Below, piece after piece: positions 1,073 through 35,336 of a stretch of 64,000 nucleotides of DNA. Within the stretch, counting starts at the first letter, position 1. Each line of letters begins with the position of its first letter. The notes beneath the pieces are model-generated. The model was not told where the DNA came from. It made no database searches and saw nothing but the letters and a program-made list of their open reading frames with translations. The stretch is taken from NCBI GenBank assembly GCA_030390025.1, contig CM059432.1, positions 46,316,001-46,380,000 of the forward strand, given 5' to 3'. The translations under genes were made by a program, and so were the position numbers. This DNA comes from Squalus acanthias (taxonomy: Eukaryota).

Positions 1073-1320
1073 GCAGCTAATCAAAAGGCAGAATTCTCAC
1101 AGGCAGCAAACAAGGAAGTGAGTAAGCTCTTAAAATTCTCACTTTTTAAAATAGTTACAGAGAGCAAAACAAAGATTGGGACTCTCACATTGGGGAAAAG
1201 GCAAATTTGAAATAAAGATGAACAAACTTTAAAAAAAAATTAAAACTTTTTTTTGAAAAGTTTCTTAAAATTTGAATTTTTATTAAAATGGACAAATTTC
1301 ACACTGCACACTACTTTTAA

Positions 1321-6935: not shown

Positions 6936-7809
6936 TTGTACAGTGCTTGTCAGTGTTTGCAGCACCTCAGTGCTGTGAAACACTGACAGAACAACTGTCA
7001 AACTCCATGTGGTCGTGGTCCCTTTAAGGAAACCAGCTGATGACACGTCATCAAATGACGTCATCAGACCCGCTTCCTGTTAATTGGCTGGGAAGCCCGC
7101 AGGTCGGGCTTAACAAGGCCAATCAAGGGAAAATCCCTTTGACAGTGCGGCTGCAGCCAGGATCGTGACTGGAACCCAGAAACCAGCTCTCCCGCCGCCA
7201 ACCCGACACCTATAATAAAATCACGGCCAACGTTTCAGGTTGATGACCTTTCATCAGAACTCCATAGAATGTCTATGGATGTTATTTATATAGACTTCCA
7301 GAAGGCATTCGATAAAATCCCTCATAAGAGACTGTTAACTAAAGTTGAAGCTCATGAAATTGAAGGCAAATTATTGACCTGGTTAGGAGAATGGCTGTGT
7401 GGCAGGAGACAGAGAGTAGGCATAATGGCCAGGTACTTTAATTGGCAGGATGTGACTAGTGGTGTCCCACTTGGATTTGTGTTGGGGCCCCAACTATTCA
7501 CAATATTTACTAACGACTTAGATGACAGGATAGAGAGCCTCATATCCAAGTTTGCCGATGACACAAAGTTAGACGGCATTGTAAGCAGTGTAGATGGAAG
7601 CAAAAATTACAAAGAGATATTAATAGATTAAGTGAATGGGCAAAACTGTGGGAAATGGATTTCAATATAGGCAAGTGTGAATCATCCATTTTTGACCTGA
7701 AAAGAGCAATTTCTAAATGCTGAAAAGCTAGAAGCAGAGGAGGTTCAAAGAGACTTAGGGGTCCATGTACATAAATCATTAAAATGTCATGGACAGGTAC
7801 AGAAAATAG

Positions 7810-8352: not shown

Positions 8353-9332
8353 GTAAGGCTAATGTAATGCTGGCCTTTGTATCTATAGGACTAGAATACA
8401 AGGTGTTAGAAGTCATGCTACAGCTAAACAAAGCCCTGATTAGACCACATCTGGAGTACTGTGAGCAGTTCTGGGCACCACACCTTAGGAGGGATATATT
8501 GCCCTTGGAGAGATGGCAACGCTGATTTACTAGAATGATACCTGGACTCCAAGGGTTAAATTATGAGGAGAGACTACACAAAGTAGGGTTGTATTCCCTG
8601 GAATTTAGAAGATTAAAGGGTGATTTGATCGAAGCTTTCAAGATATTAATGGGAACTGATAGAGAGAAACTACTTCCACTGGTTGGGGAATCTAGGACTA
8701 GGGGACATAGCCTAAAAGTTAGAACGAGGAATTTCAGCAGTGAAGTTAGGAAACAGTTCTACATGCAAAGGGTGTTAGAAGTTTGGAACTGTCTCTGCAA
8801 ACAGCTGTTGATGTTGGGTGAATTGTTAATTTCAAATCTGAGTTTAATAGATTTCTGTTAATCAAAGGTATTAAGGGATATGGGGCAAAGGCAGATATAT
8901 GGAGTTAGGTCACAGATCAGCCATGATGTCATTGAATAGCGGAAGAAACTCGAGGGGCTAAATAGCCTACTCCTTTTCCTATGTTCCGATAATGAGATCT
9001 GCACATTCAGTAGATAAAGCAATCATGAACTCTTTAGCTGTCTAGGTTCTGGAATATTAAATGTGCCAGGGGAAACAACAGGAGCCCCAGCTGCCTGTTC
9101 CCAACATAGTTCAAAGGGACATGAAGGCCTTGAATTACAAAAGGAACTCAAGCAGGTGGAGAACACGGAAATACAGCAATTTTGCCAGAACTCTGACTTT
9201 TACACTGATCAAAGTTGATTTGGCTGCACCAGAGTAATAGGAAAGTGAGAAACAAGAATGAAAGAAATCCCTTCAAGAGAGAAACAGACAAAGTTTGAGA
9301 ACAAGCATCTGAACTGTGGTGGTATGGAGTAC

Positions 9333-12300
9333 TGGCCAAGGGAGGAATGTTGGCCATGGGAGGAATTTGGCCAAGGGAGGAATGTTGGCCAAGGGAGGAA
9401 TGTTGGCCAAGAGAGGAATGTTGGCCAAGGGAGCAACGTTGGCCAAGGGAGGAATGTTGGCCATGGGAGGAATGTTGGCCAAGAGAGGAATGTTGGCCAA
9501 GGGAGCAACGTTGGCCAAGGGAGGAATGTTGGCCAAGGGAGGAATGTTGGCCAAGGGAGGAATGTTGGCCAAGGGAGGAATGTTGGCCATGGGAGGAATG
9601 TTTGCCAAGGGAGGAATGTTGGCCAAGGGAGGAATGTTGGCCAATGGAGGAATGTTGGCCATGGGAGGAATGTTGGCCAAGGGAGGAATGTTGGCCAAGG
9701 GAGGAATGTTGGCCATGGGAGGAATGTTAGCCAATGGAGGAATGTTGGCCAAGGGAGCAATGTTGGCCAAGGGAGGAATGTTAGCCAAGGGAGGAATGTT
9801 GGTCATGGGAGGAATGTTGGCCAAGGGAGGAATGTTGGCCAATGGAGGAATGTTGGCCAAGGGAGGAATGTTGGCCAAGGGAGGAATGTTGGCCAAGGGA
9901 GGAATGTTGGCCAAGGGAGGAATGTTGGCCAAGGGAGGAATGTTGGCCAAGGGAGGAATGTTGGCCAAGGGAGGAATGTTGGCCAAGGGAGGAATGTTGG
10001 CCAAGGGAGGAATGTTGGCCAAGGGAGGAATGTTGGCCAAGGGAGGAATGTTGGCCAAGGGAGGAATGTTGGCCAAAGGAGGAATGTTGGCCAAGGGAGG
10101 AATGTTGGCCATGGGAGGAATGTTGGCCAAGGGAAGAATGTTGGCCAAGGGAGGAATGTTGGCCAAGGGAGGAATGTTGGCCAAGGGAAGAATGTTGGCC
10201 AAGGGAGGAATGTTGGCCAAGGGAGGAATATTGGCCAAGGGAGGAATGTTGGCCAAGGGAGGAATGTTGGCCAAGGGAAGAATGTTGGCCAAGGGAGGAA
10301 TGTTGGCCAAGGGAGGAATGTAGGCCAAGGGAGGAATGTTGGCCAAGAGAGGAATGTTGGCCAAGGGAAGAATGTTGGTCATGGGAGGAATGTTGGCCAA
10401 GGGAGGAATGTTGGCCAAGGGAGGAATGTTGGCCAAGGGAAGAATGTTGGTCATGGGAGGAATGTTAGCCAAGGGAGGAATGTTGGCCAAGGGAGGAATG
10501 TTAGCCAAGGGAAGAATGTTGGTCATGGGAGGAATGTTGGCCAAGGGAGGAATGTTGGCCAAGGGAAGAATGTTGGCCAAGGGAGGAATGTTGGCCAAGA
10601 GAGGAATGTTGGCCAAGGGAAGAATGTTGGCCATGGGAGGAATGTTGGCCAAGAGAGGAATGTTAGCCAAGGGAGGAATGTTGGCCAAGGGAGGAATGTT
10701 GGCCAAGGGAGGAATGTTGGCCAAGGGAGGAATGTTAGCCAAGGGAGGAATGTTGGCCAAGGGAGGAATGTTGGCCAAGGGAGGAATGTTGGCCAAGGGA
10801 AGAATGTTGGCCATGGGAGGAATGTTGGCCAAGAGAGGAATGTTAGCCAAGGGAGGAATGTTGGCCAAGGGAAGAATGTTGGCCAAGGGAGGAATGTTGG
10901 CCAAGGGAGGAATGTTGGCCATTGGAGGAATGTTGGCCAAGGGAGGAATGTTAGCCAAGGGAGGAATGTTGGCCAAGGGAAGAATGTTGGCCAAGGGAGG
11001 AATGTTGGCCAAGGGAGGAATGTTGGCCAAGGGAAGAATGTTGGTCATGGGAGGAATGTTGGCCAATGGAGGAATGTTGGCCATGGGAGGAATGTTAGCC
11101 AAGGGAGGAATGTTGGCCAAGGGAGGAATGTTGGCCAAGGGAGGAATGTTGGCCAAGGGAGGAATGTTGGCCAAGGGAAGAATGTTGGCCATGGGAGGAA
11201 TGTTGGCCAAGGGAGGAATGTTGGCCAAGGGAAGAATGTTGGCCATGGGAGGAATGTTGGCCAAGAGAGGAATGTTAGCCAAGGGAGGAATGTTGGCCAA
11301 GGGAAGAATGTTGGCCAAGGGAGGAATGTTGGCCAAGGGAGGAATGTTGGCCATTGGAGGAATGTTGGCCAAGGGAGGAATGTTAGCCAAGGGAGGAATG
11401 TTGGCCAAGGGAAGAATGTTGGCCAAGGGAGGAATGTTGGCCAAGGGAGGAATGTTGGCCAAGGGAGGAATGTTGGCCAAGGGAAGAATGTTGGTCATGG
11501 GAGGTATGTTGGCCAAGGGAGGAATGTTGGACAAGGGAGGAATGTTGGCCAAGGGAGGAATGTTGGCCAAGGGAAGAATGTTGGTCATGGGAGGAATGTT
11601 GGCCAAGGGAAGAATGTTGGCCAAGGGAGGAATGTTGGCCAAGGGAGCAACGTTGGCCAAGGGAGGAATGTTGGCCATGGGAGGAATGTTGGCCAAGGGA
11701 GGAATGTTGGCCAAGGGAAGAATGTTGGTCATGGGAGGAATGTTGGTCAAGGGAGGAATGTTGGCCAAGGGAGGAATGTTGGCCAAGGGAGGAATGTTGG
11801 CCATGGGAGGAATGTTGGCCAAGGGAGGAATGTTGGCCAAGGGAAGAATGTTGGTCATGGGAAGAATGTTGGCCATGGGAGGAATGTTGGCCAAGGGAGG
11901 AATGTTGGCCAAGGGAGGAATGTTGGCCAAGGGAGGAATGTTGGCCATGGGAGGAATGTTGGCCAAGGGAGGAATGTTGGCCAAGGGAGGAATGTTGGCC
12001 ATGGGAGGAATGTTGGCCAAGGGAGGAACGTTGGCCAAGGGAGGAATGTTGGCCAAGGGAGGAATGTTGGCCATGGGAGCAACGTTGGCCAAGGGAGGAA
12101 TGTTGGCCAAGGGAGGAATGTTGGCCAAGGGAGGAATGTTGGCCATGGGAGGAATGTTGGCCAAGGGAGGAATGTTGGCCAAGGGAGGAATGTTGGCCAT
12201 GGGAGCAACGTTGGCCAAGGGAGTAATGTTGGCCATGGGAGCAACGTTGGCCAAGGGAGGAATGTTGGCCAAGGGAGGAATGTTGGCCAAGGGAGCAACG

Positions 12301-15300
12301 TTGGCCAAGGGAGGAATGTTGGCCAAGGGAAGAATGTTGGTCATGGGAGGAACGTTGGCCAATGGAGGAATGTTGGCCAAGGGAGGAATGTTGGTCATGG
12401 GAAGAATGTTGGTCATGGGAGGAATGTTGGCCAATGGAGGAATGTTGGCCAAGGGAGGAATGTTGGCCAAGGGAAGAATGTTGGCCAAAGGAGGAATGTT
12501 GGCCAAGGGAGGAATGTTGGCCAAGGGAGGAATGTTGGCCATGGGAGGAATGTTGGCCAAGGGAGGAATGTTGGCCAAGAGAGGAATGTTGGCCAAGGGA
12601 GGAATGTTGGCCAAGGGAGGAATGTTGGCCATGGGAGGAATGTTAGCCAATGGAGGAATGTTGGCCATGGGAGGAATGTTGGCCAAAGGAGGAATGTTGG
12701 GCCAAGGGAGGAATGTTGGCCAAGGGAGGAATGTTGGCCAAGGGAGGAATGTTGGCCAAGGGAGGAATGTTGGCCAAGAGAGGAATGTTGGCCAAGGGAG
12801 GAATGTTGGCCAAGGGAGGAATGTTGGCGAAGGGAGGAATGTTGGCCAAGGGAGGAATGTTGGCCAAGAGAGGAATGTTGGCCAAGGGAAGAATGTTGGC
12901 CAAGGGAGGAATGTTGGCGAAGGGAGGAATGTTGGCCATGGGAGGAATGTTGGCCAAGGGAGGAATGTTGGCCAAGGGAAGAATGTTGGCCATGGGAGGA
13001 ATGTTGGCCAATGGAGGAATGTTGGCCAAGAGAGGAATGTTGGCCAATGGAGGAATGTTGGCCATGGGAGGAATGTTGGCCATGGGAGGAATGTTGGCCA
13101 TGGGAGGACTGTTGGCCAAGGGAGGAATGTTGGCCAAGAGAGGAATGTTGGCCAATGGAGGAATGTTGGCCATGGGAGGAATGTTGGCCAAAGGAGGAAT
13201 GTTGGGCCAAGGGAAGAATGTTGGCCATGGGAGGAATGTTGGCCAAGGGAGGAATGTTGGCCAAGGGAAGAATGTTGGCCATGGGAGGAATGTTGGCCAT
13301 GGGAGGAATGTTGGCCAAGGGAGGAATGTTGGCCATGGGAGGAATGTTGGCCAAGGGAGGAATGTTGGCCAAGAGAGGAATGTTGGCCAAGGGAGGAATG
13401 TTGGCCAAGGGAAGAATGTTGGCCAAGGGAGGAATGTTGGTGAAGGGAGGAATGTTGGCCATGGGAGGAATGTTGGCCAAGGGAGGAATGTTGGCCAAGG
13501 GAAGAATGTTGGCCATGGGAGGAATGTTGGCCAATGGAGGAATGTTGGCCAAGAGAGGAATGTTGGCCAATGGAGGAATGTTGGCCATGGGAGGAATGTT
13601 GGCCATGGGAGGAATGTTGGCCATGGGAGGACTGTTGGCCAAGGGAGGAATGTTGGCCAAGAGAGGAATGTTGGCCAATGGAGGAATGTTGGCCATGGGA
13701 GGAATGTTGGCCAAAGGAGGAATGTTGGGCCAAGGGAAGAATGTTGGCCATGGGAGGAATGTTGGCCAAGGGAGGAATGTTGGCCAAGGGAAGAATGTTG
13801 GCCATGGGAGGAATGTTGGCCATGGGAGGAATGTTGGCCAAGGGAGGAATGTTGGCCATGGGAGGAATGTTGGCCAAGGGAGGAATGTTGGCCAAGAGAG
13901 GAATGTTGGCCAAGGGAGGAATGTTGGCCAAGGGAAGAATGTTGGCCAAGGGAGGAATGTTGGTGAAGGGAGGAATGTTGGCCATGGGAGGAATGTTGGC
14001 CAAGGGAGGAATGTTGGCCAAGGGAAGAATGTTGGCCATGGGAGGAATGTTGGCCAATGGAGGAATGTTGGCCAAGAGAGGAATGTTGGCCAATGGAGGA
14101 ATGTTGGCCATGGGAGGAATGTTGGCCATGGGAGGAATGTTGGCCATGGGAGGAATGTTGGCCAAGGGAGGAATGTTGGCCAAGAGAGGAATGTTGGCCA
14201 ATGGAGGAATGTTGGCCATGGGAGGAATGTTGGCCAAAGGAGGAATGTTGGGCCAAGGGAAGAATGTTGGCCATGGGAGGAATGTTGGCCAAGGGAGGAA
14301 TGTTGGCCAAGGGAAGAATGTTGGCCATGGGAGGAATGTTGGCCATGGGAGGAATGTTGGCCAAGGGAGGAATGTTGGCCAAGGGAGGAATGTTGGCCAT
14401 GGGAGGAATGTTGGCCAAGGGAGGAATGTTGGCCATGGGAGCAACGTTGGCCAAGGGAGGAATGTTGGCCAAGGGAGGAATGTTGGCCAAGGGAGGAATG
14501 TTGGCCATGGGAGGAATGTTGGCCAAGGGAGGAATGTTGGCCAAGGGAGGAATGTTGGCCATGGGAGCAACGTTGGCCAAGGGAGTAATGTTGGCCATGG
14601 GAGCAACGTTGGCCAAGGGAGGAATGTTGGCCAAGGGAGGAATGTTGGCCAAGGGAGCAACGTTGGCCAAGGGAGGAATGTTGGCCAAGGGAAGAATGTT
14701 GGTCATGGGAGGAACGTTGGCCAATGGAGGAATGTTGGCCAAGGGAGGAATGTTGGTCATGGGAAGAATGTTGGTCATGGGAGGAATGTTGGCCAATGGA
14801 GGAATGTTGGCCAAGGGAGGAATGTTGGCCAAGGGAAGAATGTTGGCCAAAGGAGGAATGTTGGCCAAGGGAGGAATGTTGGCCAAGGGAGGAATGTTGG
14901 CCATGGGAGGAATGTTGGCCAAGGGAGGAATGTTGGCCAAGAGAGGAATGTTGGCCAAGGGAGGAATGTTGGCCAAGGGAGGAATGTTGGCCATGGGAGG
15001 AATGTTAGCCAATGGAGGAATGTTGGCCATGGGAGGAATGTTGGCCAAAGGAGGAATGTTGGGCCAAGGGAGGAATGTTGGCCAAGGGAGGAATGTTGGC
15101 CAAGGGAGGAATGTTGGCCAAGGGAGGAATGTTGGCCAAGAGAGGAATGTTGGCCAAGGGAGGAATGTTGGCCAAGGGAGGAATGTTGGCGAAGGGAGGA
15201 ATGTTGGCCAAGGGAGGAATGTTGGCCAAGAGAGGAATGTTGGCCAAGGGAAGAATGTTGGCCAAGGGAGGAACGTTGGCCAATGGAGGAATGTTGGCCA

Positions 15301-18300
15301 AGGGAGGAATGTTGGTCATGGGAAGAATGTTGGTCATGGGAGGAATGTTGGCCAATGGAGGAATGTTGGCCAAGGGAGGAATGTTGGCCAAGGGAAGAAT
15401 GTTGGCCAAAGGAGGAATGTTGGCCAAGGGAGGAATGTTGGCCAAGGGAGGAATGTTGGCCATGGGAGGAATGTTGGCCAAGGGAGGAATGTTGGCCAAG
15501 AGAGGAATGTTGGCCAAGGGAGGAATGTTGGCCAAGGGAGGAATGTTGGCCATGGGAGGAATGTTAGCCAATGGAGGAATGTTGGCCATGGGAGGAATGT
15601 TGGCCAAAGGAGGAATGTTGGGCCAAGGGAGGAATGTTGGCCAAGGGAGGAATGTTGGCCAAGGGAGGAATGTTGGCCAAGGGAGGAATGTTGGCCAAGA
15701 GAGGAATGTTGGCCAAGGGAGGAATGTTGGCCAAGGGAGGAATGTTGGCGAAGGGAGGAATGTTGGCCAAGGGAGGAATGTTGGCCAAGAGAGGAATGTT
15801 GGCCAAGGGAAGAATGTTGGCCAAGGGAGGAATGTTGGCGAAGGGAGGAATGTTGGCCATGGGAGGAATGTTGGCCAAGGGAGGAATGTTGGCCAAGGGA
15901 AGAATGTTGGCCATGGGAGGAATGTTGGCCAATGGAGGAATGTTGGCCAAGAGAGGAATGTTGGCCAATGGAGGAATGTTGGCCATGGGAGGAATGTTGG
16001 CCATGGGAGGAATGTTGGCCATGGGAGGACTGTTGGCCAAGGGAGGAATGTTGGCCAAGAGAGGAATGTTGGCCAATGGAGGAATGTTGGCCATGGGAGG
16101 AATGTTGGCCAAAGGAGGAATGTTGGGCCAAGGGAAGAATGTTGGCCATGGGAGGAATGTTGGCCAAGGGAGGAATGTTGGCCAAGGGAAGAATGTTGGC
16201 CATGGGAGGAATGTTGGCCATGGGAGGAAAGTTGGCCAAGGGAGGAATGTTGGCCATGGGAGGAATGTTGGCCAAGGGAGGAATGTTGGCCAAGAGAGGA
16301 ATGTTGGCCAAGGGAGGAATGTTGGCCAAGGGAAGAATGTTGGCCAAGGGAGGAATGTTGGTGAAGGGAGGAATGTTGGCCATGGGAGGAATGTTGGCCA
16401 AGGGAGGAATGTTGGCCAAGGGAAGAATGTTGGCCATGGGAGGAATGTTGGCCAATGGAGGAATGTTGGCCAAGAGAGGAATGTTGGCCAATGGAGGAAT
16501 GTTGGCCATGGGAGGAATGTTGGCCATGGGAGGAATGTTGGCCATGGGAGGACTGTTGGCCAAGGGAGGAATGTTGGCCAAGAGAGGAATGTTGGCCAAT
16601 GGAGGAATGTTGGCCATGGGAGGAATGTTGGCCAAAGGAGGAATGTTGGGCCAAGGGAAGAATGTTGGCCATGGGAGGAATGTTGGCCAAGGGAGGAATG
16701 TTGGCCAAGGGAAGAATGTTGGCCAAGGGAGGAATGTTGGTCATGGGAAGAATGTTGGTCATGGGAGGAATGTTGGCCAATGGAGGAATGTTGGCCAAGG
16801 GAGGAATGTTGGCCAAGGGAAGAATGTTGGCCAAAGGAGGAATGTTGGCCAAGGGAGGAATGTTGGCCAAGGGAGGAATGTTGGCCATGGGAGGAATGTT
16901 GGCCAAGGGAGGAATGTTGGCCAAGTGAGGAATGTTGGCCAAGGGAGGAATGTTGGCCAAGGGAGGAATGTTGGCCATGGGAGGAATGTTAGCCAATGGA
17001 GGAATGTTGGCCATGGGAGGAATGTTGGCCAAAGGAGGAATGTTGGGCCAAGGGAGGAATGTTGGCCAAGGGAGGAATGTTGGCCAAGGGAGGAATGTTG
17101 GCCAAGGGAGGAATGTTGGCCAAGAGAGGAATGTTGGCCAAGGGAGGAATGTTGGCCAAGGGAGGAATGTTGGCCAAGGGAGGAATGTTGGCCAAGGGAG
17201 GAATGTTGGCCAAGAGAGGAATGTTGGCCAAGGGAAGAATGTTGGCCAAGGGAGGAATGTTGGCGAAGGGAGGAATGTTGGCCATGGGAGGAATGTTGGC
17301 CAAGGGAGGAATGTTGGCCAAGGGAAGAATGTTGGCCATGGGAGGAATGTTGGCCAATGGAGGAATGTTGGCCAAGAGAGGAATGTTGGCCAATGGAGGA
17401 ATGTTGGCCATGGGAGGAATGTTGGCCATGGGAGGAATGTTGGCCATGGGAGGACTGTTGGCCAAGGGAGGAATGTTGGCCAAGAGAGGAATGTTGGCCA
17501 ATGGAGGAATGTTGGCCATGGGAGGAATGTTGGCCAAAGGAGGAATGTTGGGCCAAGGGAAGAATGTTGGCCATGGGAGGAATGTTGGCCAAGGGAGGAA
17601 TGTTGGCCAAGGGAAGAATGTTGGCCATGGGAGGAATGTTGGCCATGGGAGGAATGTTGGCCAAGGGAGGAATGTTGGCCATGGGAGGAATGTTGGCCAA
17701 GGGAGGAATGTTGGCCAAGAGAGGAATGTTGGCCAAGGGAGGAATGTTGGCCAAGGGAAGAATGTTGGCCAAGGGAGGAATGTTGGTGAAGGGAGGAATG
17801 TTGGCCATGGGAGGAATGTTGGCCAAGGGAGGAATGTTGGCCAAGGGAAGAATGTTGGCCATGGGAGGAATGTTGGCCAATGGAGGAATGTTGGCCAAGA
17901 GAGGAATGTTGGCCAATGGAGGAATGTTGGCCATGGGAGGAATGTTGGCCATGGGAGGAATGTTGGCCATGGGAGGACTGTTGGCCAAGGGAGGAATGTT
18001 GGCCAAGAGAGGAATGTTGGCCAATGGAGGAATGTTGGCCATGGGAGGAATGTTGGCCAAAGGAGGAATGTTGGGCCAAGGGAAGAATGTTGGCCATGGG
18101 AGGAATGTTGGCCAAGGGAGGAATGTTGGCCAAGGGAAGAATGTTGGCCATGGGAGGAATGTTGGCCATGGGAGGAATGTTGGCCAAGGGAGGAATGTTG
18201 GCCATGGGAGGAATGTTGGCCAAGGGAGGAATGTTGGCCAAGAGAGGAATGTTGGCCAAGGGAGGAATGTTGGCCAAGGGAAGAATGTTGGCCAAGGGAG

Positions 18301-21300
18301 GAATGTTGGTGAAGGGAGGAATGTTGGCCATGGGAGGAATGTTGGCCAAGGGAGGAATGTTGGCCAAGGGAAGAATGTTGGCCATGGGAGGAATGTTGGC
18401 CAATGGAGGAATGTTGGCCAAGAGAGGAATGTTGGCCAATGGAGGAATGTTGGCCATGGGAGGAATGTTGGCCATGGGAGGAATGTTGGCCATGGGAGGA
18501 ATGTTGGCCAAGGGAGGAATGTTGGCCAAGAGAGGAATGTTGGCCAATGGAGGAATGTTGGCCATGGGAGGAATGTTGGCCAAAGGAGGAATGTTGGGCC
18601 AAGGGAAGAATGTTGGCCATGGGAGGAATGTTGGCCAAGGGAGGAATGTTGGCCAAGGGAAGAATGTTGGCCATGGGAGGAATGTTGGCCATGGGAGGAA
18701 TGTTGGCCAAGGGAGGAATGTTGGCCAAGGGAGGAATGTTGGCCATGGGAGGAATGTTGGCCAAGGGAGGAATGTTGGCCATGGGAGCAACGTTGGCCAA
18801 GGGAGGAATGTTGGCCAAGGGAGGAATGTTGGCCAAGGGAGGAATGTTGGCCATGGGAGGAATGTTGGCCAAGGGAGGAATGTTGGCCAAGGGAGGAATG
18901 TTGGCCATGGGAGCAACGTTGGCCAAGGGAGTAATGTTGGCCATGGGAGCAACGTTGGCCAAGGGAGGAATGTTGGCCAAGGGAGGAATGTTGGCCAAGG
19001 GAGCAACGTTGGCCAAGGGAGGAATGTTGGCCAAGGGAAGAATGTTGGTCATGGGAGGAACGTTGGCCAATGGAGGAATGTTGGCCAAGGGAGGAATGTT
19101 GGTCATGGGAAGAATGTTGGTCATGGGAGGAATGTTGGCCAATGGAGGAATGTTGGCCAAGGGAGGAATGTTGGCCAAGGGAAGAATGTTGGCCAAAGGA
19201 GGAATGTTGGCCAAGGGAGGAATGTTGGCCAAGGGAGGAATGTTGGCCATGGGAGGAATGTTGGCCAAGGGAGGAATGTTGGCCAAGAGAGGAATGTTGG
19301 CCAAGGGAGGAATGTTGGCCAAGGGAGGAATGTTGGCCATGGGAGGAATGTTAGCCAATGGAGGAATGTTGGCCATGGGAGGAATGTTGGCCAAAGGAGG
19401 AATGTTGGGCCAAGGGAGGAATGTTGGCCAAGGGAGGAATGTTGGCCAAGGGAGGAATGTTGGCCAAGGGAGGAATGTTGGCCAAGAGAGGAATGTTGGC
19501 CAAGGGAGGAATGTTGGCCAAGGGAGGAATGTTGGCGAAGGGAGGAATGTTGGCCAAGGGAGGAATGTTGGCCAAGAGAGGAATGTTGGCCAAGGGAAGA
19601 ATGTTGGCCAAGGGAGGAATGTTGGCGAAGGGAGGAATGTTGGCCATGGGAGGAATGTTGGCCAAGGGAGGAATGTTGGCCAAGGGAAGAATGTTGGCCA
19701 TGGGAGGAATGTTGGCCAATGGAGGAATGTTGGCCAAGAGAGGAATGTTGGCCAATGGAGGAATGTTGGCCATGGGAGGAATGTTGGCCATGGGAGGAAT
19801 GTTGGCCATGGGAGGACTGTTGGCCAAGGGAGGAATGTTGGCCAAGAGAGGAATGTTGGCCAATGGAGGAATGTTGGCCATGGGAGGAATGTTGGCCAAA
19901 GGAGGAATGTTGGGCCAAGGGAAGAATGTTGGCCATGGGAGGAATGTTGGCCAAGGGAGGAATGTTGGCCAAGGGAAGAATGTTGGCCATGGGAGGAATG
20001 TTGGCCATGGGAGGAATGTTGGCCAAGGGAGGAATGTTGGCCATGGGAGGAATGTTGGCCAAGGGAGGAATGTTGGCCAAGAGAGGAATGTTGGCCATGG
20101 GAGGAATGTTGGCCAAGGGAAGAATGTTGGCCAAGGGAGGAATGTTGGTGAAGGGAGAAATGTTGGCCATGGGAGGAATGTTGGCCAAGGGAGGAATGTT
20201 GGCCAAGGGAAGAATGTTGGCCATGGGAGGAATGTTGGCCAATGGAGGAATGTTGGCCAAGAGAGGAATGTTGGCCAATGGAGGAATGTTGGCCATGGGA
20301 GGAATGTTGGCCATGGGAGGAATGTTGGCCATGGGAGGACTGTTGGCCAAGGGAGGAATGTTGGCCAAGAGAGGAATGTTGGCCAATGGAGGAATGTTGG
20401 CCATGGGAGGAATGTTGGCCAAAGGAGGAATGTTGGGCCAAGGGAAGAATGTTGGCCATGGGAGGAATGTTGGCCAAGGGAGGAATGTTGGCCAAGGGAA
20501 GAATGTTGGCCATGGGAGGAATGTTGGCCATGGGAGGAATGTTGGCCAAGGGAGGAATGTTGGCCATGGGAGGAATGTTGGCCAAGGGAGGAATGTTGGC
20601 CAAGAGAGGAATGTTGGCCAAGGGAGGAATGTTGGCCAAGGGAAGAATGTTGGCCAAGGGAGGAATGTTGGTGAAGGGAGGAATGTTGGCCATGGGAGGA
20701 ATGTTGGCCAAGGGAGGAATGTTGGCCAAGGGAAGAATGTTGGCCATGGGAGGAATGTTGGCCAATGGAGGAATGTTGGCCAAGAGAGGAATGTTGGCCA
20801 ATGGAGGAATGTTGGCCATGGGAGGAATGTTGGCCATGGGAGGAATGTTGGCCATGGGAGGAATGTTGGCCAAGGGAGGAATGTTGGCCAAGAGAGGAAT
20901 GTTGGCCAATGGAGGAATGTTGGCCATGGGAGGAATGTTGGCCAAAGGAGGAATGTTGGGCCAAGGGAAGAATGTTGGCCATGGGAGGAATGTTGGCCAA
21001 GGGAGGAATGTTGGCCAAGGGAAGAATGTTGGCCATGGGAGGAATGTTGGCCATGGGAGGAATGTTGGCCAAGGGAGGAATGTTGGCCATGGGAGGAATG
21101 TTGGCCAAGGGAGGAATGTTGGCCAAGAGAGGAATGTTGGCCAAGGGAGGAATGTTGGCCAAGAGAGGAATGTTGGCCAAGGGAACAATGTTGGCCAAGG
21201 GAGGAATTTTGGCCATGGGAGGAATGTTGGCCAAGGAAGGAATGTTGTCCAAGGGAGGAATGTTGGCCAAGGGAAGAATGTTGGCCATGGGAGGAATGTT

Positions 21301-21612
21301 GGCCAAGGGAGGAATGTTGGCCAAGGGAGGAATGTTGGCCAAGGGAGGAATGTTGGCCAAGGGAAGAATGTTGGCCATGGGAGGAATGTTGGCCAATGGA
21401 GGAATGTTGGCAATGGGAGGAATGTTGGCCATGGGAGGAATGTTGGCCATGGGAAGAATGTTGGCGAAGGGAGGAATGTTGGCCAATGGAGGAATGTTTG
21501 CCAAGGGAGGAATGTTTGACATGGGAGGAATGTTGGCCAAGGGAGGAATGTTGGCCAAGGGAGGAATGTTGGCCATGGGAGGAATGTTGGCCATTGGAGG
21601 AATGTTGGTGAA
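9333..21612. repeat. 12.3-kb tandem satellite, 18-bp unit TGGCCAAGGGAGGAATGT (~680 copies) with higher-order repeats
   Basis: Directly visible; recurrent variants (CCATGGG, GGAAGAA, AAGAGAG, GAGCAACG) and sixteen 19-bp (+G) units. Confidence 0.99.
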
Positions 21613-21860
21613 GTCACTGGGGGAACTCCCCTGCTCTTCTTCAAGTAGTGCCATGAGATTTTTTACTTTCAGCTGAAAGAACAGACAGGGCCTCAGGTTA
21701 GCATCTCATCTGAAAGACAGCACCTTCAACAGTGCAGCACTCCCTTAGTACTGCACTGAAGTATTGGCCTAAATTATGTGCTCAAGTCTCTGGAGTGTGG
21801 TTTGAATCCATGACCTTCTGACTCAGGTGAGTATGCTACCACTGAGTCAAAGCTGACACC
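21613..21860 (-). mobile_element. 5' half of Deu-domain SINE (tRNA head at right), contiguous with the satellite
   Basis: cactgggggaactcccctgctcttcttc...cagtgcagcactcccttagtactgcactg...gctaccactgagtcaaagctgacacc is collinear with 60293-60537. Confidence 0.9.
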
Positions 21861-21865
21861 TTAAA

Positions 21866-21900
21866 TGGATAGATAGATAGATTGATAGATAGATGGATGG
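21866..21900. repeat. (GATA)n/(GATG)n microsatellite
   Basis: ggatagatagatagattgatagatagatggatgg. Confidence 0.9.
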
Positions 21901-23077
21901 AGGGACATAGATATTCTCTTAGACTTTCAACCCCCTGCCCCGCCAAGTTCTAGTGGATCTAGGGCGGGTGGAAGTAGAAAGATGCTTAGGGATACGGTCT
22001 GTCATATCTTCGACTATATGCATCTCCTACGCCCTTTCTGGAGGGCTGGTCCCAAGAGGGCAGAATATGCCTAATCATTTGTGGGCAAGTATAAGTTAAA
22101 GGTATATAAATGTTTTCTGCCAATAGCACTGTTTGAATGCTGGATACAAGGCCATCTCTTTGGCCCAGGCACCCAACATTCCATACTTGGTGGAAGGAAA
22201 TATAAAATTCTCCATTCAGCCATGGAAAGTATTCATGGAATGCTACCTTGCATAGGCCCAAGAGGGGAGTCTGACTTTTTTTTACAAAACAGAATTTTGC
22301 ATGCAGTATGTAGACTGTCTTCATTCATCTCTGCAGCAGGCCCCCAAGGCTTGCCATGTCAGAACTCCCCTCTTTTTTCAACAGTGGCCAGGAAGCCCAC
22401 CTCTAATAATATAACCATCCTGAGGCTGGAAAGTCTGCTGGGACAGGGGGCACCTCTGTGGTGTGACGTCCCACTCCCTATAGAAGGTCTTCAATCAAGG
22501 TGGACATGGAAAGCATAGGCCATACAGTTTGGAAAGGGTTCGTGATTTAAGTGTAATTCCTCTGCATTAACAGGTTTCCCTAACCTCAGAAATACCACAC
22601 GAGGATAGACTTTTACCATATCCTATACTATTTTTCCATTTATTTTATTCTTGATAAATATCTGGTTAATTTCTTTATTGAGGTGAGACAGTTTGAACAA
22701 ATGATAGAAGGAATCAGTTGTAAGGGGGCGTGTCTCAGACGGTGCTGGTGCGAGGTTTGGCCTTCGTTGCCTATACTATTGCTTGCTCTGGTCTCCGGCC
22801 AGCCTTTTTGCAATAAGCACCTGTGAGTGGTTCGACCCACTCGCCCTTACGGTTCTAACACTGGACTTAGGTGCAGGGAGCAGTAATGCAGAGAAAACTT
22901 CAAATAGACCCGGTTGAATAGCACGAAATGGAAATCTTTATTGCATGGCGTCTAAAATCATGAAATACATGTCATAGGCGCAAATCAAAGATAGTACAAG
23001 TATACATACATTCATAAAGCTTGGTCTATGGAAATGGACAAAAATGAGAAGTCGCACAACACCAGGTTATAGTCCAA

Positions 23078-23970
23078 GGGGTAGAAATTAGGTCGCGCCC
23101 CATTTGGGGCGCAAATATCGTCCGGACGCAAATATTAGCGCCTGGCGCTAATTATCGGCACTGACAGGAAACTTCACTTTTACCGCCCCGGGAGGTGAGT
23201 GGAGCGCTAAAGCAGGCGCTGCACACCTCTCTTAAGGCGCAAAGGCCGAGCAGTGAGGCGCTAACTCGGAGTGCTGGCGAAGCTCATGTAATGTCAGTCA
23301 GCAATGGAACACACACACAATGGCACGGGCCAGTTCTTAAAGGGGATGGTTAATCTTGCTTTCCATCCACATCCTGTTCATTGCAGCCTTGAATCTCGGC
23401 CTGGAGAGACTTGCACATCAAATGTGCTGGAAAGAACAATGGAGAGTACCAGGCAAAGAGCTCAGAGTGCAGCTCCCACAGTCTCTGCTAAATCGATACA
23501 AGGAATGGCAAATCAAAATGAACCTGCAAAGTGCTGCTCAGTACCCAAAACTCCTTCACACAACGTTGAATCTCTCCAGAAGTCTCTCCCTCTCTCTCTC
23601 AGAATGCGTAGTTGAAAAATGCCACCAACAATAAAAGACAGGAAGAGGCCCCCTTTAAATAGCGCCCCCCCCAGCCCCACAGCGATTGATAGCGTTCCAG
23701 TCTTCTGGTCGTTGGAAGCGCCAGGCGGTAAGGCAGGGGGCGCCATTCAATTTCCACTACGGGGCGCCACAAGGGCGTTGCACCATGGAATGACGTCACA
23801 ATCTGCGCGCGCAGGTGGTCGCAGCGGTAAGTTTTAGCGCCGCCGCACAATCTCAAGTTAAGTTCTCGAGCGGCGCAAACATCGCTGCGCCCGGGCGTTA
23901 GCGGCTTTGCGCCCCATTAGCGCCCTCTTAAGGCGCTAACGGGAAGCGCAACCAAGTGAATTTTTACCCC
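23078..23970. mobile_element. Harbinger-type non-autonomous element/MITE (893 bp)
   Basis: TIR ggggtagaaatt / aatttttacccc; flanks CAA / TAA; GC-rich subterminal gcgc repeats. Confidence 0.8.
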
Positions 23971-24051
23971 TAAGAGTTTTTTTGAAATCACAAGCTTTTG
24001 GAGCTATCGATCGCCCCTTCCTCAGGTGAAGTAAAGAGATACAGATTCTGT

Positions 24052-24092
24052 ATCCTGAGGAAGGGGCGATCGATAGCTCCGAAAGCTTGTGA
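24052..24092 (+). ncRNA. Minimal hammerhead ribozyme motif (second PLE family)
   Basis: CTGAGGA-a-ggggc[gatcgata]gctcc-GAAA-GCTT-gtga; palindromic AGCT stem III; mirror copy on the minus strand at ~23986-24029 has GAAA>AAAA. Confidence 0.6.
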
Positions 24093-26273
24093 TTTCAAAT
24101 AAAACTGTTGGACTATAACCTGGTGTTGTGCGACTTCTCATTTTTGTCCACCCCAGTCCAACACCGGCATCTCCGCATTATGGAAATGGAGAACACACGG
24201 CACATCATAAAAAGGGGAACACATTATATCTTAACCTTATTAAAACCACCCTCCCTTAACAATACCTACACTACGTCTGGATTTGTAGGATCGGAAATCA
24301 TGCTCACCACTCGTTTTACTTCGGAAATTTTAAAGTGAGGCACTCAGCTCGTTTCGCTGCAGCACCTGACTGTCACGTGTTTGGAAGAGTTTTCTGCACC
24401 CCACTTGTTTACTTTCGCTGCTGCGAAAAGCAGGCCAGACTCCCTGTTGTCATGAAGAACTCGACGGAACTCGGATACAATTCAAAGAAGAGTCTTCCTG
24501 TGTCCGACACAGGTTGTAGTCGGTAGAACTCAAAGAAGAGTCCTGTATTTATATTTTCGGGCGCAGGTCGGGGTTTACTGACCGTGGCGGCACGTGGAAT
24601 TTCTTCTCGTCTTCTTCTCGTCTCGTCTCCTCGGACCTCCGGGTCCAGACACCGTTTACCGACACTCGGGATGGTGTACCCTGTTACTTGCCCTTGTCGG
24701 GGCAGCTCGTACCGATTGAGCTCCACCCAACACTCGAATAACCGACCAGTACGGCTAAGAGTCAAGAGTCAACAAAGTCCAGAGAGAAAAACAAAAGGCT
24801 GCCCGTCCAGGAGAGCGATACCAGAGGATAAGAGTTCAGCAAGCGAAATAAGAGAGCGATGGACATTTGTTCTCTATAGTTATAGTGCTGTGTCCACTTA
24901 TCTCCCGCTCAAATCTTAATGTTTGTCCTTTGTGTAATATTTGGCGCTCAAAACTCCCAGCATGGGGCGATTATCTTCTTTAACGGGTTTCGGTTGCACC
25001 TGAAACTGGCCAACTATCCGTTAATGTTTTCCCCATTGTTGAAACCAGCCAGGATGTGTATGAATCGTCTCCCTGACTGGTTTTGGGGCCCCCCGAATAC
25101 TGGCTTAATCACCCGTCAATGTCTCTCTCATTGTAGAGCCGGGGGGGTATTTGTGTATTGATGTGTCTGGCTGGGCCTTCGATTGCCCAGTACAATGATC
25201 CTTACTGTGCATAGGAAAACGATTCCAGCACTTATATCATTGCTATTGTTCGCAATGCAAACGGGTTGCATCCTGTCTTTATCAATGTTTACCGAGTATG
25301 ATCCAATCTCATATTGAATGTATATTCGACGCCATCTTGTCTGCCCACTGTGTTCCTGGAAGCTTCTGCCACGATGCGTGGTGGCCATTTTACAGGCTTC
25401 TGTGTCCTTTATCATCAGGACAGCATTTCGTTTAATAAAACTGATCAATTGAATCTGCTTCTGTCATGTTATTTTGAATCGCGATAATTGCGAACTTTAC
25501 AAGTCCACAGGAATCAGATATGAATTCCATATTTTTAAGATTTTTATTATGAAGTGAGCTCTAATAATTTCTGCCAGAAATAATACTATTTCTTAACCAA
25601 AATATGAAATACCATTTATGGTGAATTTGTTTAAATTTTAATCCCTTTATCACATTCTACTTCATTATATATTCTATTAGCTTTCTCCACATAGAATTAT
25701 TATAGCATTGAGTTACTTTGTTGATTTATTTCCTAGGACAGAGTTCATGCCAAGAGGTTAAGAACACGCAGATACTGTAAAAAAAAATGAACAGCTGTAA
25801 TAAGCATTGATGAAAAAACAAATGGGAAACAGTGGAGCCAATACTTGTTCTTTTGATTAGCTACATCTCCAGTGTTTGTCTGTATGTGATCATTTATTTT
25901 TGCATAGCTGATTCAAGCACATGACAAATCTGTGCACATGGACAACGTGCATGTGATTGTAATTTTATAATGACCCATTTGTTTGGCCACAGATAATTTG
26001 CCTCTGCCCGTGGTGAACAAATCGTATGCACAGGTAAGACTGGAAAGCAGGCATTAATTGTATGCTAGAAAAAGAAAAGATGGATTTGAATGAAAAAGGA
26101 ACAGAAAAGAGGAATGCATCAGGACAGAATTCCAGAAGGAAAATGAGGGCAGCTTCAGAGTAGGAGACATGATGACTACCTGAACTATGGCCATTCCTCC
26201 CTTTTCTAGATTTCATAACAGCCCATGAGGAGCAGCTGCAATAATTGGTAACCCGACAACGATTCTTCTAGGC

Positions 26274-26468
26274 CAGCGTTTCCCAACCTGTGGTCCGCGG
26301 ACCACTGGTGGTCCGCAAGGGTACTGCAGGTGGTCCGTGATAAAAAATATATAAGTTTGACTCCCGTCAGCCATAGGCTGTTAAAAAAATTTTAAACGGC
26401 TGGTGGTCCGCAGAAGCAATTTTTAAACGGCTGGTGGTCCGCATGAAGGAAAAGGTTGGGAACCGCTG
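26274..26468. mobile_element. hAT (Charlie-like) MITE, 195 bp
   Basis: TIR cagcgtttcccaacct / aggttgggaaccgctg; perfect 8-bp TSD ttctaggc; internal tggtccgc repeats. Confidence 0.92.
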
Positions 26469-27368
26469 TTCTAGGCTAAAATCTTACGGTGTGATATTCG
26501 TAATAAAGTATTTGTATAAAATTCTGTCTGTTACTTTGTTGAAAGTGTTAGTCTGTTTAAAGGAAATCGACTACCAACTTTATTAATATAGTGCACAAAG
26601 CAAGATCACACAGCAAGATTTCACCCCATTCAAATCTCCTCTGTGTTCCCAGCAATTACTAGTGTCAGAGTAATAGCTGTCTGTGCTGCACCTTGTCTTG
26701 TACTTTTAATGTATTAAAACTCTTAGGTATTCATGTACTTCTTGTAAATGTAACATTTACTTCATGTAACACTTCCATTTCCCTCAAGCTTTTTTCATCA
26801 TTCTATTTCTGTTATGCTTGTCTGTTATGCTTAAAATTTACTAATTTCTTAAAGTTACCTCTGATTGGGTCCTCCAAGCCCCATCTCCAAAGTAGGTAGT
26901 AATGTGGCACTGGTCTCCACAGCGCCATCTCCCTGATGCCGATCAAAATCAAGCACCTCACCCAATGCAAACTCTTGCTGCCTCTGCCCACTCGCTCCTA
27001 CCACTTCTTCCACACCTGAGCCTCCGCCCCTCACCCCCCGCAATTGCACTTCCCCCCCTTTCCTATTAACCACTTTCCCTTGCACAAGCATCCATGTTTC
27101 CACCCCCCGCCCCCACCCCCACCATAATCCTGCCCTGAGATAAGAGCTATTGCTGCATTCACAACTGTGACCTGGGAGATGGCTTTAAGCTGGCTAACTA
27201 CAATAAAAGCACAGAAATTGCTTTAAACAATTTAAAGCCAGTTGCCAAGTCATGGCCAGGAATTCAGCTATAGGCTTTCTTTACAAATACAGTGGTGGGA
27301 TTCCTGAAAGGTTTCTCTCAGTTCTGAGTTGGGAAGCCTGTCTTAACTATTTAAAGTGCATTTATATT

Positions 27369-28128
27369 GGGCCGTATTTTCCGATCGGAGGCTTCCTGTG
27401 TGCGGAGGCCTCCGATCTGGAAAAAATCTATGGACTTACCTGAGGGCTCCCAAGGTGCGTATACTTCCGATTCCTGGGCCTCTCCAACTCGAAATGTGCA
27501 GGGCCCACGTATCCCAGAGGCGCATGCGGTTCGCAAGCGTCCCTGGGATCACGTGGGCTATAGGGAGCCAATAGGAGAAGGGAATCTCCCTTCATACACT
27601 TGACAGATAGACCGTGTCAAAAGTATGAATGGAGATCACCCCAAAAACACAGTAAAACATTAAATAAATGTAATAAAAAATCACATTTTTTAAATGAGTT
27701 GAAATTACAATAAATTAAATAATTTAAACAAAAATTTAATTTTTTGAAAAAAATAATTAAAGTTTTTATGGGGCTAAAAATAAACTTATCTATTTTTAAA
27801 GTATTTTTAAATGATAAATGATTGAATTTTTTTTTTTTTACTTTTTTTCAAATCTTATGCTGGTAAAAGCAGGCCTTACGCTTGCTTTTACCAGGCGTAA
27901 GATTTCTAAGGGTTTTCTGCGGGCAGAGGTTCTCCAGAAAGCGGAACTATCCGCCCACAGAGGCCCTTCTCCAGGGCAGGTGTCCGATCTGTCAAGAGCA
28001 TTCTTGACAGATTGGAAATGCCGGTTTTCAGCGCGTGCGCTTGGCATGCCTGAAACCGGCATTTCCGATGTCCCTACGGGTGTGTATACAGCGCGTACAC
28101 GCCCGTAGGGATCGGAATATATGGCCCC
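27369..28128. mobile_element. Harbinger-type MITE (~760 bp)
   Basis: TIR gggccgtattttccgatc / gatcggaatatatggccc; AT-rich core, GC-rich ends; TSD unclear. Confidence 0.7.
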
Positions 28129-28169
28129 AGATATTATATTATAATTGCTGACTTACGGTTGGCAATTGC

Positions 28170-28966
28170 AAACTCCATTCCCTAGCCACTTACTCCATCC
28201 CTCTCCCTAACATCTGTCTGAGGTTGAACCACACTGTTCGTAACCTTGGTGTCATATTTGACCCTGAAATGAGCTTCCGACCACATATCTGCAGCATAAC
28301 TAAGACCGCCTATCTCCACCTCCGTATCATCACCCATCTCCGCCCTTGCCTCAGCTCATCCGCTGCTGAAACCCTCATCTATGCCTTTGTTACCTCTAGA
28401 CTTGACTATTCCAACGCACTCCTGGCTGGCCTCCCTCATTCTACCCTTCGTAAACTTGTGGTGATCCAAAACTCGGCTGCCCGTGTCCTAACTCGCACCA
28501 AGTCCTGTTCACCCATCACCCCTGTGCTCACTGACCTACATTGGCTCCCGGTTAAACAACGCCTCGATTTCAAAATTCTTGTTTTTAAATCCCTCCCTGG
28601 CCTCACCCCTCCCTATCTCTGTAATCTCCTTCAGCCCCACAACCCCTCGAGATATCTGCGCTTCTCTAATTCTGCCCTCTTGAGCATCCCTGATTATAAT
28701 CGCTCTACCATTGGTGGCCGTGCCTTCTGTTGCCTAGGCCCCAAGCTCTGGAATTCCCTGCCTAAACCTCTCCGCCTCGCTACCTCTCTTTCCTCCTTTA
28801 AGACGCTCCTTAAAACCTACCTCTCTGACCAAGCTTTTGGTCACCTGCCCTAATTTATCCTTATGTGGATCGGTGTCAAATTTTTTTGTCTTAGAATACT
28901 CCTGTGAAGCACCTTGGGATGTTTTACTACGTTAAAGTCGCTATATAAATACAAGTTGTTGTTGTT
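28170..28966 (+). mobile_element. L2 LINE 3' fragment (ORF2 C-terminus 28224-28853)
   Basis: VRNLGVIFD...AFVTSRLDYSN...LHWLPVKQRLDFKIL...GGRAF...WNSLP; tail gctatataaatacaagttgttgttgtt. Confidence 0.9.
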
Positions 28967-29194
28967 ATAAGTGGACCAAGCATTTTATTTAACTATAAAA
29001 AGCTTCCCAGCTCAGTGCTGGGAAAACATTGTTGTAAAACTTCTGAGAGGCAGAACACTGTTTAGGCTTACAACCTTCATTCTTCTTTGTTCCACTCCTC
29101 CCAAAAGTATTACCAGATATCAGCCTTCTCAACATATATCCTAGCCCCTTCTGCTAGTTCGTCACTCTGCTCCCTCTCCCTCAAGCTTTCTAGG

Positions 29195-29520
29195 AGTCAG
29201 CCATGGCTCAGTGGTAGCACTCTTGCCTCTGAGTCAGAAGATTGTAAGGTTCAAGCCCCTAATACAGAGACTTGAGCACATAATCTAACTTGACACTACT
29301 TCAGTGCTGAGGGATTGCAGCACTGCCAGAGATACTATCTTTCAGATGAGATGTTAAACTGAGGCCCTATTAGGCGGATATAAAAGATCCCATGACATGA
29401 TCCGTAGAAGAGCATGGCAATCTCTTGGGGTCCTGGCCAACATTTATCCCTCATCCAACACCACCAAAGACAGATTATCTGGCTCATTTATCTCACTGCT
29501 CTTTGTGGGACCTTGTGTAT
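29195..29520 (+). mobile_element. Deu-domain SINE, 3'-truncated
   Basis: tRNA-like head tggctcagtggtagc...ggttcaagccc; body matches 51001-51340. Confidence 0.85.
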
Positions 29521-35266: not shown

Positions 35267-35336
35267 TCTGAAGGTGGGGGAGCGATTCTCAGAGGGGAAA
35301 CCAGAGGTGGGAGGAAATTTGATTCCACCAGTAAAG

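What the first reader, a model, noticed from the sequence alone, without database searches (positions are those of the whole stretch)
12050..21000. Three-tier higher-order repeat hierarchy, marked by a 19-bp (+G) unit
The variant TTGGGCC (always preceded by a CCAAAGG unit) has its GGG at 12699, 13204, 13727, 14250, 15061, 15620, 16125, 16648, 17045, 17550, 18073, 18596, 19407, 19912, 20435 and 20958. Spacings are 505, 523, 523, 811, 559, 505, 523, 397, 505, 523, 523, 811, 505, 523, 523, all of the form 18n+1 (28, 29, 45, 31 and 22 units). 505+523+523+811 = 2362 recurs as a super-unit. The private variant GAGTAATG (12221, 14583, 18929) is spaced 2362 and 4346. This resembles alpha-satellite-like HOR organisation built from a minisatellite-sized monomer in an interstitial array, and the unequal-exchange history can be read from it.
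Basis: seen in the sequence. Interest (0 to 1): 0.7.

Follow-up and report, generated by a model that had tools for sequence, protein, structure and literature searches.

The report
SINE-born minisatellite with nested block duplications
This is a 12.3-kb run of 681 copies of an 18-base repeat that likely grew out of one spot in an old short jumping gene (a SINE), and its nested pattern is the trace of about six block duplications, which is known behaviour for ordinary variable repeats and gives no sign of a centromere.

Summary
The longest repeated monomer string is 134 units, against at most 13 in 300 shuffles. The '18n+1' rule is a tautology. Removing two internal duplications (559 and 1425 bp) leaves three 131-unit (2362-bp) copies that differ by 1-2 units; six duplications made 430 of 681 units. 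New here: the array's right end runs in register into the 5' half of a tRNA-headed SINE, and the monomer's best matches elsewhere in the window are that same SINE site. Junctions share only 8-19 identical bases, so an overlap assembler is unlikely to have invented them. It is a structural higher-order repeat, but not alpha-satellite-like: monomers are 92.6% alike, each tier has 2-3 copies, and the array is 12 kb. Block duplications are reported at 29,964 human tandem-repeat loci, and 23% of human minisatellites derive from transposons. No read spanning the array was examined. Verdict: real, tidy, ordinary.

The parts
9334..21608 (.). Whole minisatellite: 681 units of 18 bp, 39 unit types, commonest type 246 of 681; G-rich on the + strand
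9334..12050 (.). Older left part, 151 units, no 19-bp unit, 8 one-off unit types; holds a 14-unit block at 10773-11024 repeated at 11205-11456
12051..14412 (.). 131-unit (2362-bp) super-unit, copy 1; holds the 523-bp period (12880-14376) and four 19-bp units
14413..18758 (.). Super-unit copy 2, enlarged to 241 units (4346 bp) by two internal tandem duplications; eight 19-bp units
14701..15818 (.). 31-unit (559-bp) tandem duplication; junction at 15266-15273 (8 identical bases) inside a hybrid monomer
15296..18145 (.). 79-unit (1425-bp) tandem duplication, copies differ at 3 bases; junction at 16714-16725 (12 identical bases)
18759..21120 (.). Super-unit copy 3; 2 substitutions against copy 1 over the first 2326 bp; runs into the original array tail
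12681..20958 (.). Span of the sixteen 19-bp (+G) marker units, found in only two contexts (11 and 5 copies); two remain once the six duplications are collapsed, which points to one origin
21101..21608 (.). Diverged right tail, 28 units, 7 of them one-off types
21584..21861 (-). 5' half of a tRNA-headed SINE (A-box-like and B-box-like motifs), 73-77% identical to four other copies in the window; its 18-bp source site coincides with the array's last unit
   Evidence: high copy number from depth
9170..9329 (-). Possible decayed 3' half of the same SINE, colinear and ending at the array's left edge (weak)
   Evidence: 5 of 1500 random window stretches score as high; not found by blastn or nhmmer

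Best explanation
This is a non-coding 18-bp minisatellite that likely arose by tandem duplication of one 18-bp segment inside an old tRNA-headed SINE and likely reached its nested pattern through about six in-register block duplications, with no sign of function. Shown: the array's last unit occupies the position of an 18-bp SINE site that matches the monomer at 14-16 of 18 bases in five other copies. The core collapses cleanly to three 131-unit copies, each holding a 29-unit period, with 31-unit and 79-unit duplications inside the middle copy. Inferred steps: (1) Misalignment at a short near-repeat spaced 18 bp apart in the SINE probably set the period. (2) The head-to-tail join lengthened a 6-bp palindrome to TTGGCCAA, so neighbouring units are predicted to form hairpins that could favour slippage. 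(3) Point mutation and small turnover gave 39 unit types, including a single +G insertion that then rode along as a marker. (4) Each new period began by a strand switch between imperfectly matched units (8-19 identical bases), which fits template switching or mismatch-tolerant recombination. The second copies at 523 and 2362 bp could be true unequal exchanges between long near-identical blocks. The top-tier copies are more alike than this flank is to other samples of the species, so the block order is predicted to vary between alleles.
For: Collapse to 3 x 131 units with 1 and 2 unit differences (plus the last two units of copy 3, where it joins the tail); 430 of 681 units come from six events. 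Junction identity is 8, 12, 17 and 17-19 bp; random in-register breakpoints have a median of 18-19 bp. SINE link: the right flank is 73-77% identical to four copies from the array's last unit onward (nhmmer E 1.4e-60). 5 loci reach at least 15/18 to the monomer outside the array, against 0.25 in 20 shuffles, and 4 of the 5 are the SINE site. Lag 18 is the best or tied-best short near-repeat at that site in 5 of 5 copies examined. One-off unit types sit at the ends: 8 of 151 left, 3 of 502 core, 7 of 28 right. A neutral duplication/deletion simulation gave 3 or more long periods in 7-19 of 40 runs and nested periods in 4-10 of 40 runs across five parameter sets. Copy divergence is 2/2326 and 2/2885, against 0.26% and 0.31% between this flank and two samples. 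Precedent in papers.
Against: No read or contig spanning the array was examined, so copy numbers and allele variation are untested. The left-flank SINE half is weak (5 of 1500; per-copy shuffles passed for 3 of 6 copies; nhmmer and blastn missed it) and is more decayed than the right half. The monomer junction lies 3-4 bases beyond the short near-repeat, not inside it, and the five SINE copies are related, not independent. Nesting arose in only 10-25% of simulated arrays, and the simulation's parameters were arbitrary. The 1425-bp copies (3 differences) are not more alike than alleles (P=0.44). The hairpin folds had no shuffle control.
Confidence: 0.8

Rival explanations
1. Part of the hierarchy is an assembly artefact: a repeat loop or two haplotypes joined in tandem added copies of the 523-, 1425- or 2362-bp blocks.
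For: The blocks are 99.8-100% identical. The 523 and 2362 junctions occur more than once, so a wrong copy count would need no new junction. The 1425-bp copies differ at an allele-like level. No spanning read was seen.
Against: The longest exact repeat in the array is 2444 bp, so reads above about 2.5 kb can resolve it. The 559 and 1425 junctions are single and have only 8 and 12 identical bases. All five private differences are substitutions, and 12.3 kb holds just one sporadic indel. The +G is not a local-context error: 6 units with the same CCAAAGG lack it, and 5 of the 16 +G units have the same following unit as those 6. Copy 1 vs 3 is closer than flank alleles (P 0.04 and 0.01).
Confidence: 0.08
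2. The monomer is unrelated to the SINE; the array merely abuts a truncated SINE and the likeness is chance.
For: The monomer differs from the best SINE copy at 2 of 18 bases and from others at 3-4. The last partial unit is itself diverged. The left SINE half is weak.
Against: The array ends at the very site, in the same orientation and register, that gives 4 of the 5 best monomer matches among about 103,000 positions. The left flank scores in the top 5 of 1500 for the missing half.
Confidence: 0.07
3. The array is a functional satellite: an alpha-satellite-like HOR domain that carries centromeric or heterochromatic chromatin, and its tiers are maintained by selection.
For: It meets the structural HOR criterion. 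CpG is depleted (29 observed), and one variant pair differs by a CpG-to-TpG change, which is compatible with methylation.
Against: It is 12.3 kb with 2-3 copies per tier, and monomers are 92.6% alike, against about 70% in alpha-satellite HORs and megabase arrays. No second array of this unit occurs in the window, and single-copy DNA shared with a relative lies 350 bp away. Neutral simulations give similar tiers.
Confidence: 0.03
4. The array is a coding repeat exon (for example a GQGRNV or NIPPLA hexapeptide repeat).
For: Stop-free stretches reach 1779 aa on + and 1809 aa on -.
Against: Every one of the six frames has 9-20 stops in 9250-21750, and 16 single-base insertions shift frame about every 500 bp. 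These codon sets have few one-step routes to a stop, so long open frames are expected. The three commonest variants change the amino acid in both of these frames (read).
Confidence: 0.02

Closest known systems
Euchromatic human tandem repeats with 'block mutations' (TRCompDB, bioRxiv 10.1101/2024.08.07.607105, section 2.6; MUC1 VNTR given as an example)
   Same: Multi-motif blocks duplicated inside a tandem repeat give higher-order patterns. 29,964 of 2,221,932 loci (1.3%) are block-positive, and 67.2% of 4,653 block-positive VNTRs have more than one block pattern.
   Different: That method filters out nested duplications. Here four block sizes are nested in one 12.3-kb array in a shark-like genome, seen in a single haplotype.
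Transposon-derived minisatellites (Ahmed and Liang 2012, PMC3389668; Alu-derived minisatellites of Jurka and Gentles 2006 as cited there)
   Same: A segment of a SINE is tandemly amplified in place. 23% of human minisatellites/satellites derive from TEs, and short direct repeats flanking the unit are one proposed trigger.
   Different: Alu-derived arrays there average about 2.3-2.4 units; this one has 681. The source is a tRNA-headed SINE.
Primate alpha-satellite higher-order repeats (PMC8122249; PMC4053949)
   Same: Blocks of polymorphic monomers are repeated, and blocks are more alike than monomers.
   Different: The monomer is 18 bp rather than 171 bp; monomers are 92.6% rather than about 70% alike; each tier has 2-3 copies in 12 kb rather than a megabase array; there is no centromere evidence.
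Shark tRNA-derived SINEs: SacSINE1 (Deu-SINE) or HE1 (V-SINE) (PMC5499810, PMC3747384)
   Same: About 475-bp element with a tRNA-type head and very high copy number; SacSINE1 copies reach 463 bp in whale shark.

Membership tests
Higher-order repeat (structural definition) | Adjacent multimers much more alike than individual monomers (PMC4053949) | tested here: met
   Monomers 92.6% alike; 523-bp lag 2 differences in 974 bp; super-units 2 in 2326 bp
Alpha-satellite-type centromeric HOR | Monomers within a HOR about 70% identical | tested here: not met
   92.6% mean pairwise identity over 502 core units
Alpha-satellite-type centromeric HOR | HOR amplified to very many copies in a megabase-scale array | tested here: not met
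   12.3-kb array, 2-3 copies per tier
Alpha-satellite-type centromeric HOR | CENP-A chromatin or centromeric position | not testable with these tools
   No chromatin data and no whole genome held
Minisatellite / VNTR | Unit of 10-100 bp in an array of 0.5-30 kb | tested here: met
   18-bp unit, 12.3 kb
Minisatellite / VNTR | Copy number varies between alleles | not testable with these tools
   Only short-read contigs were listed; variation is predicted from copy divergence below flank allele divergence
TE-derived tandem repeat | Unit similar to a TE segment and array overlapping the TE at that segment | tested here: met
   14-16/18 match at one SINE site in five copies; array ends in register at that site
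TE-derived tandem repeat | Both halves of the TE flank the array | tested here: inconclusive
   5' half clear (E 1.4e-60); 3' half weak (5 of 1500; missed by nhmmer and blastn)
tRNA-derived SINE | Pol III A and B boxes in a tRNA-type head; high copy number | tested here: met
   Box-like motifs in 3 of 3 copies checked, using recalled patterns; summed contig depth about 1e5-1e6 against about 10 for single-copy DNA
SacSINE1 (Deu-SINE) or HE1 (V-SINE) | Similarity to the family consensus and its conserved domain | not testable with these tools
   No repeat library; paper supplements not available; name is recalled
G-quadruplex-forming minisatellite (CEB1/CEB25 type, recalled) | Four closely spaced G3 runs or high G4Hunter score | tested here: not met
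   0 canonical motifs; G4Hunter mean 0.70, 0.3% of windows at or above 1.2

The most novel reading that the evidence does not exclude
This SINE family carries a built-in satellite seed: an 18-bp-spaced near-repeat whose duplication creates an 8-bp palindrome and a hairpin-prone monomer. Arrays would then have started repeatedly at the same site among its very many copies in shark genomes, and this locus would be a satellite caught at birth, with every step from SINE segment to multi-tier HOR readable and every new tier founded by template switching at under 20 bases of identity.
Probability: 0.15. Interest if true: 0.55.

Novelty: new member of a known kind. Interest (0 to 1): 0.27.

Why it matters
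It is a clean worked example of how higher-order repeat structure appears without any centromere. Six duplications built 63% of the array, all four junction types can be mapped to within 8-19 bases, and the monomer's source is still attached. It would serve as a test locus for block-duplication mechanisms and rates in a slowly mutating lineage, and probably as a highly variable marker. It changes no general view unless the same SINE site proves to seed arrays at many loci.

Tried and rejected
Whole-genome search for other arrays of this monomer: not possible, no genome held. Coding repeat: rejected. G-quadruplex driver: not supported. The +G unit as a trigger for large duplications: all six blocks hold one, but the chance of this under random placement is about 0.09 over the four independent events, so it is not supported. 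+G as a sequencing error: rejected by context. RNA or tRNA genes: 0 Rfam matches in 1-36000; 0 tRNA genes in the window. Host gene: an exon-like piece at 872-1069 has no Pfam match and 7143-7628 is reverse transcriptase; whether the array is intronic or intergenic stayed open. Sequencing runs: the search used the right flank only; no RNA holder listed. Contigs laid on 21560-34700 were swamped by SINE paralogues, and none of the listed pieces reaches the array edge (nearest start 21781), so neither the edge in other samples nor the empty site in a relative was seen. SINE family naming: supplements of PMC5499810 not available; they may hold the consensus that would settle it. Print check: 'shark + minisatellite + higher-order repeat' gave 0 papers; 'HE1 SINE + shark' gave 1 unrelated paper; the library lacks most subscription journals. 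Earlier scan notes: none near this place, by sequence, or by the first word search. An absolute date (about 6e5 generations from 2/2326 at 7e-10 per generation) is not relied on: it rests on two differences and a rate from another species, and conversion can reset it.
Full report
Observation. The window holds one large tandem array, 9333-21608 by Tandem Repeats Finder, period 18, 681 copies, 92% matches. Splitting it into monomers gives 681 units of 39 types; 664 are 18 bp, 16 are 19 bp and one is 17 bp. All positions and spacings in the finding are reproduced exactly, including the 2362 and 4346 spacing of GAGTAATG. The unit order is far from random: the longest exact repeated string is 134 units, against mean 7.3 and maximum 13 in 300 shuffles. 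The '18n+1' rule carries no information, since each interval contains one 19-bp unit and no other indel.

Anatomy of the hierarchy. The repeated blocks have lags of 29, 31, 79, 131, 241 and 372 units. Removing one 79-unit (1425-bp) copy and one 31-unit (559-bp) copy leaves three consecutive 131-unit copies. Copy 2 differs from copy 1 by one unit, and copy 3 by two units plus its last two, where it joins the old tail. So 4346 = 2362 + 559 + 1425. Removing two 131-unit and two 29-unit copies leaves 251 units with two 19-bp markers. Six events therefore made 430 of 681 units. The 16 markers occur in only two contexts (11 and 5 copies), which points to one insertion copied by the blocks (inference). 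The 505-bp interval is a junction interval that shares only its last 17-18 units with the 523-bp block. One-off unit types are concentrated at the ends: 8 of 151 units on the left, 3 of 502 in the core, 7 of 28 on the right. Monomers in the core are 92.6% alike, while blocks differ at 2 of 974 (523 lag), 2 of 2326 (copy 1 vs 3), 2 of 2885 (4346 lag), 3 of 1425 and 0 of 847 bases.

Junctions. The tract of perfect identity at the founding junction is 8 bp for the 559 duplication, which leaves a hybrid monomer; 12 bp for the 1425; 17 bp for the 523; and 17-19 bp for the 2362, which is less cleanly placed. Random in-register breakpoints in this array have a median tract of 18-19 bp and reach 100 bp in under 1% of draws. 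The events thus did not seek long perfect homology. That fits template switching or mismatch-tolerant exchange better than classical unequal crossing-over, which by recall needs well over 100 bp of identity. The second copies at 523 and 2362 bp could be ordinary unequal exchanges. All six blocks contain a +G unit, but this has a probability of about 0.09 by chance, so I treat the unit as a passive marker.

Is it an artefact? I examined no read spanning the array. Indirect evidence is against an artefact. The longest exact repeat is 2444 bp. Two junctions are single and short. The five private differences between block copies are all substitutions, and there is one sporadic indel in 12.3 kb. 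Six CCAAAGG units lack the +G, although 5 of the 16 +G units have the same following unit. The right flank is real: 5 of 24 listed runs hold half or more of its sampled words, from two samples in two studies of one organism; one of these may be the assembly's source. From the eight pieces listed per run in a cut table, the flank differs from runs X2 and X5 at 18 of 6881 and 20 of 6412 bases, and from a relative (X11) at 223 of 7003. Copies 1 and 3 are closer than that (P about 0.04; 4346 lag P about 0.01), while the 1425-bp pair is not (P 0.44). This suggests the top tier is younger than typical alleles and should be polymorphic (inference). Copy counts at the 523 and 2362 periods remain the part most open to error.

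Origin of the monomer. From the array's last unit onward, the right flank aligns at 73-77% to four copies of a roughly 475-bp interspersed repeat in the window. A profile of six copies hits 21584-21861 at E 1.4e-60. The element has A-box-like and B-box-like motifs in 3 of 3 heads checked, using recalled patterns, and summed contig depth 4-5 orders above single-copy DNA, so it is a tRNA-headed SINE on the minus strand. Scanning all rotations of the monomer over about 103,000 non-array positions finds 5 loci at 15/18 or better, against a mean of 0.25 in 20 shuffles. Four of these are the same site in the SINE copies, and a fifth copy matches at 14/18. That site is where the array ends, in the same orientation and register. 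The 160 bp left of the array align colinearly to the SINE's other half and score in the top 5 of 1500 random stretches. Per-copy shuffles passed for 3 of 6 copies, and nhmmer and blastn missed it, so 'inside one SINE' is likely but not shown. At this site all five SINE copies examined carry a 5-6 of 7 near-repeat whose best or tied-best spacing is 18. The copies are related, and the monomer join lies 3-4 bases past this repeat, so its role is inferred. The head-to-tail join extends the SINE's TGGCCA to TTGGCCAA, present 442 times; neighbouring units are predicted to pair through it on either strand (-21.6 and -20.4 kcal/mol over 108 nt, no shuffle control). There is no G-quadruplex signature. 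That the genome is shark-like, and that the SINE is SacSINE1 or HE1, rests on recall and on unchecked notes for this genome; no call tested it.

Do tiers need an explanation beyond drift? In a simple neutral model of point mutation plus random-length tandem duplication and deletion, 40 runs for each of five arbitrary parameter sets gave three or more long tandem periods in 19, 14, 19, 16 and 7 runs, and nested periods in 10, 8, 5, 6 and 4 runs. The median longest repeat was 97-142 units. The real array scores three periods (29, 31, 79) and 160 units by the same measure. Tiers are thus a common neutral outcome, though nesting was a minority result.

Function. No frame is open through the array: 9-20 stops per frame and 16 frameshifting units. 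Rfam found nothing in 1-36000 and ARAGORN nothing in the window. Gene context was not resolved. Nothing here indicates a function.

Comparison with what is known. The array meets the operational HOR test of PMC4053949 (passages), but not the alpha-satellite features of about 70% monomer identity (PMC8122249, passages) or megabase scale. Higher-order block patterns in euchromatic repeats are reported for 29,964 of 2,221,932 human loci (bioRxiv 10.1101/2024.08.07.607105, section 2.6 read whole plus passages); that method filters nested cases. TE-derived minisatellites make up 23% of human minisatellites/satellites, and short flanking direct repeats are one proposed trigger (PMC3389668, passages). 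For SINE names I saw passages of PMC3747384 and PMC5499810 (supplements unavailable). Passages of PMC10620051, bioRxiv 10.1101/2025.06.15.659631 and PMC10587355 added background only. I found no paper on this kind of array in sharks, but the library is partial.

Verdict. It is a SINE-derived minisatellite with nested block duplications, a new member of a known kind, and not an alpha-satellite-like domain. Its size (681 units) and the completeness of the record are its only unusual features. Interest 0.27.

Noticed in passing
window 22716-25501: A 2.8-kb high-copy insertion that is absent in a relative: one contig of run X11 joins 22715 to 25502.
   Followed up: partly
window 23035-24150 and 40456-40660: An element with perfect 43-bp terminal inverted repeats 1030 bp apart and an inner 50-bp inverted repeat, nested in the insertion above; a short, almost fully palindromic relative (100-bp arms) lies at 40456-40660. 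MITE-like by appearance.
   Followed up: partly
window 34772-35279: A second G-rich minisatellite, 22 x 23 bp, 94% matches, about 60 bp upstream of another SINE copy.
   Followed up: no
window 903-1118: An exon-like stretch with AG and GT borders but a stop in each frame; the 66-aa open frame has no Pfam match.
   Followed up: partly
window 31328-34552: Single-copy DNA covered by one contig of a relative, with a CpG-rich stretch and a splice-donor-like site near 32355; it may be the start of a gene on the + strand.
   Followed up: no
window 35900-38790: A minus-strand LINE-like stretch with strong G skew; other notes on this genome describe LINEs with SINE-type heads.
   Followed up: no
window 12916, 13439 and 21605-21612: Two variant units at homologous places differ by a CpG-to-TpG change, and the array's last partial unit carries the TpG form; a weak hint of germline methylation or of exchange with the array end.
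   Followed up: no
window 17175 and 20098: Two of the five private differences between block copies turn a unit into another common unit type, which looks like short gene conversion rather than new mutation.
   Followed up: no
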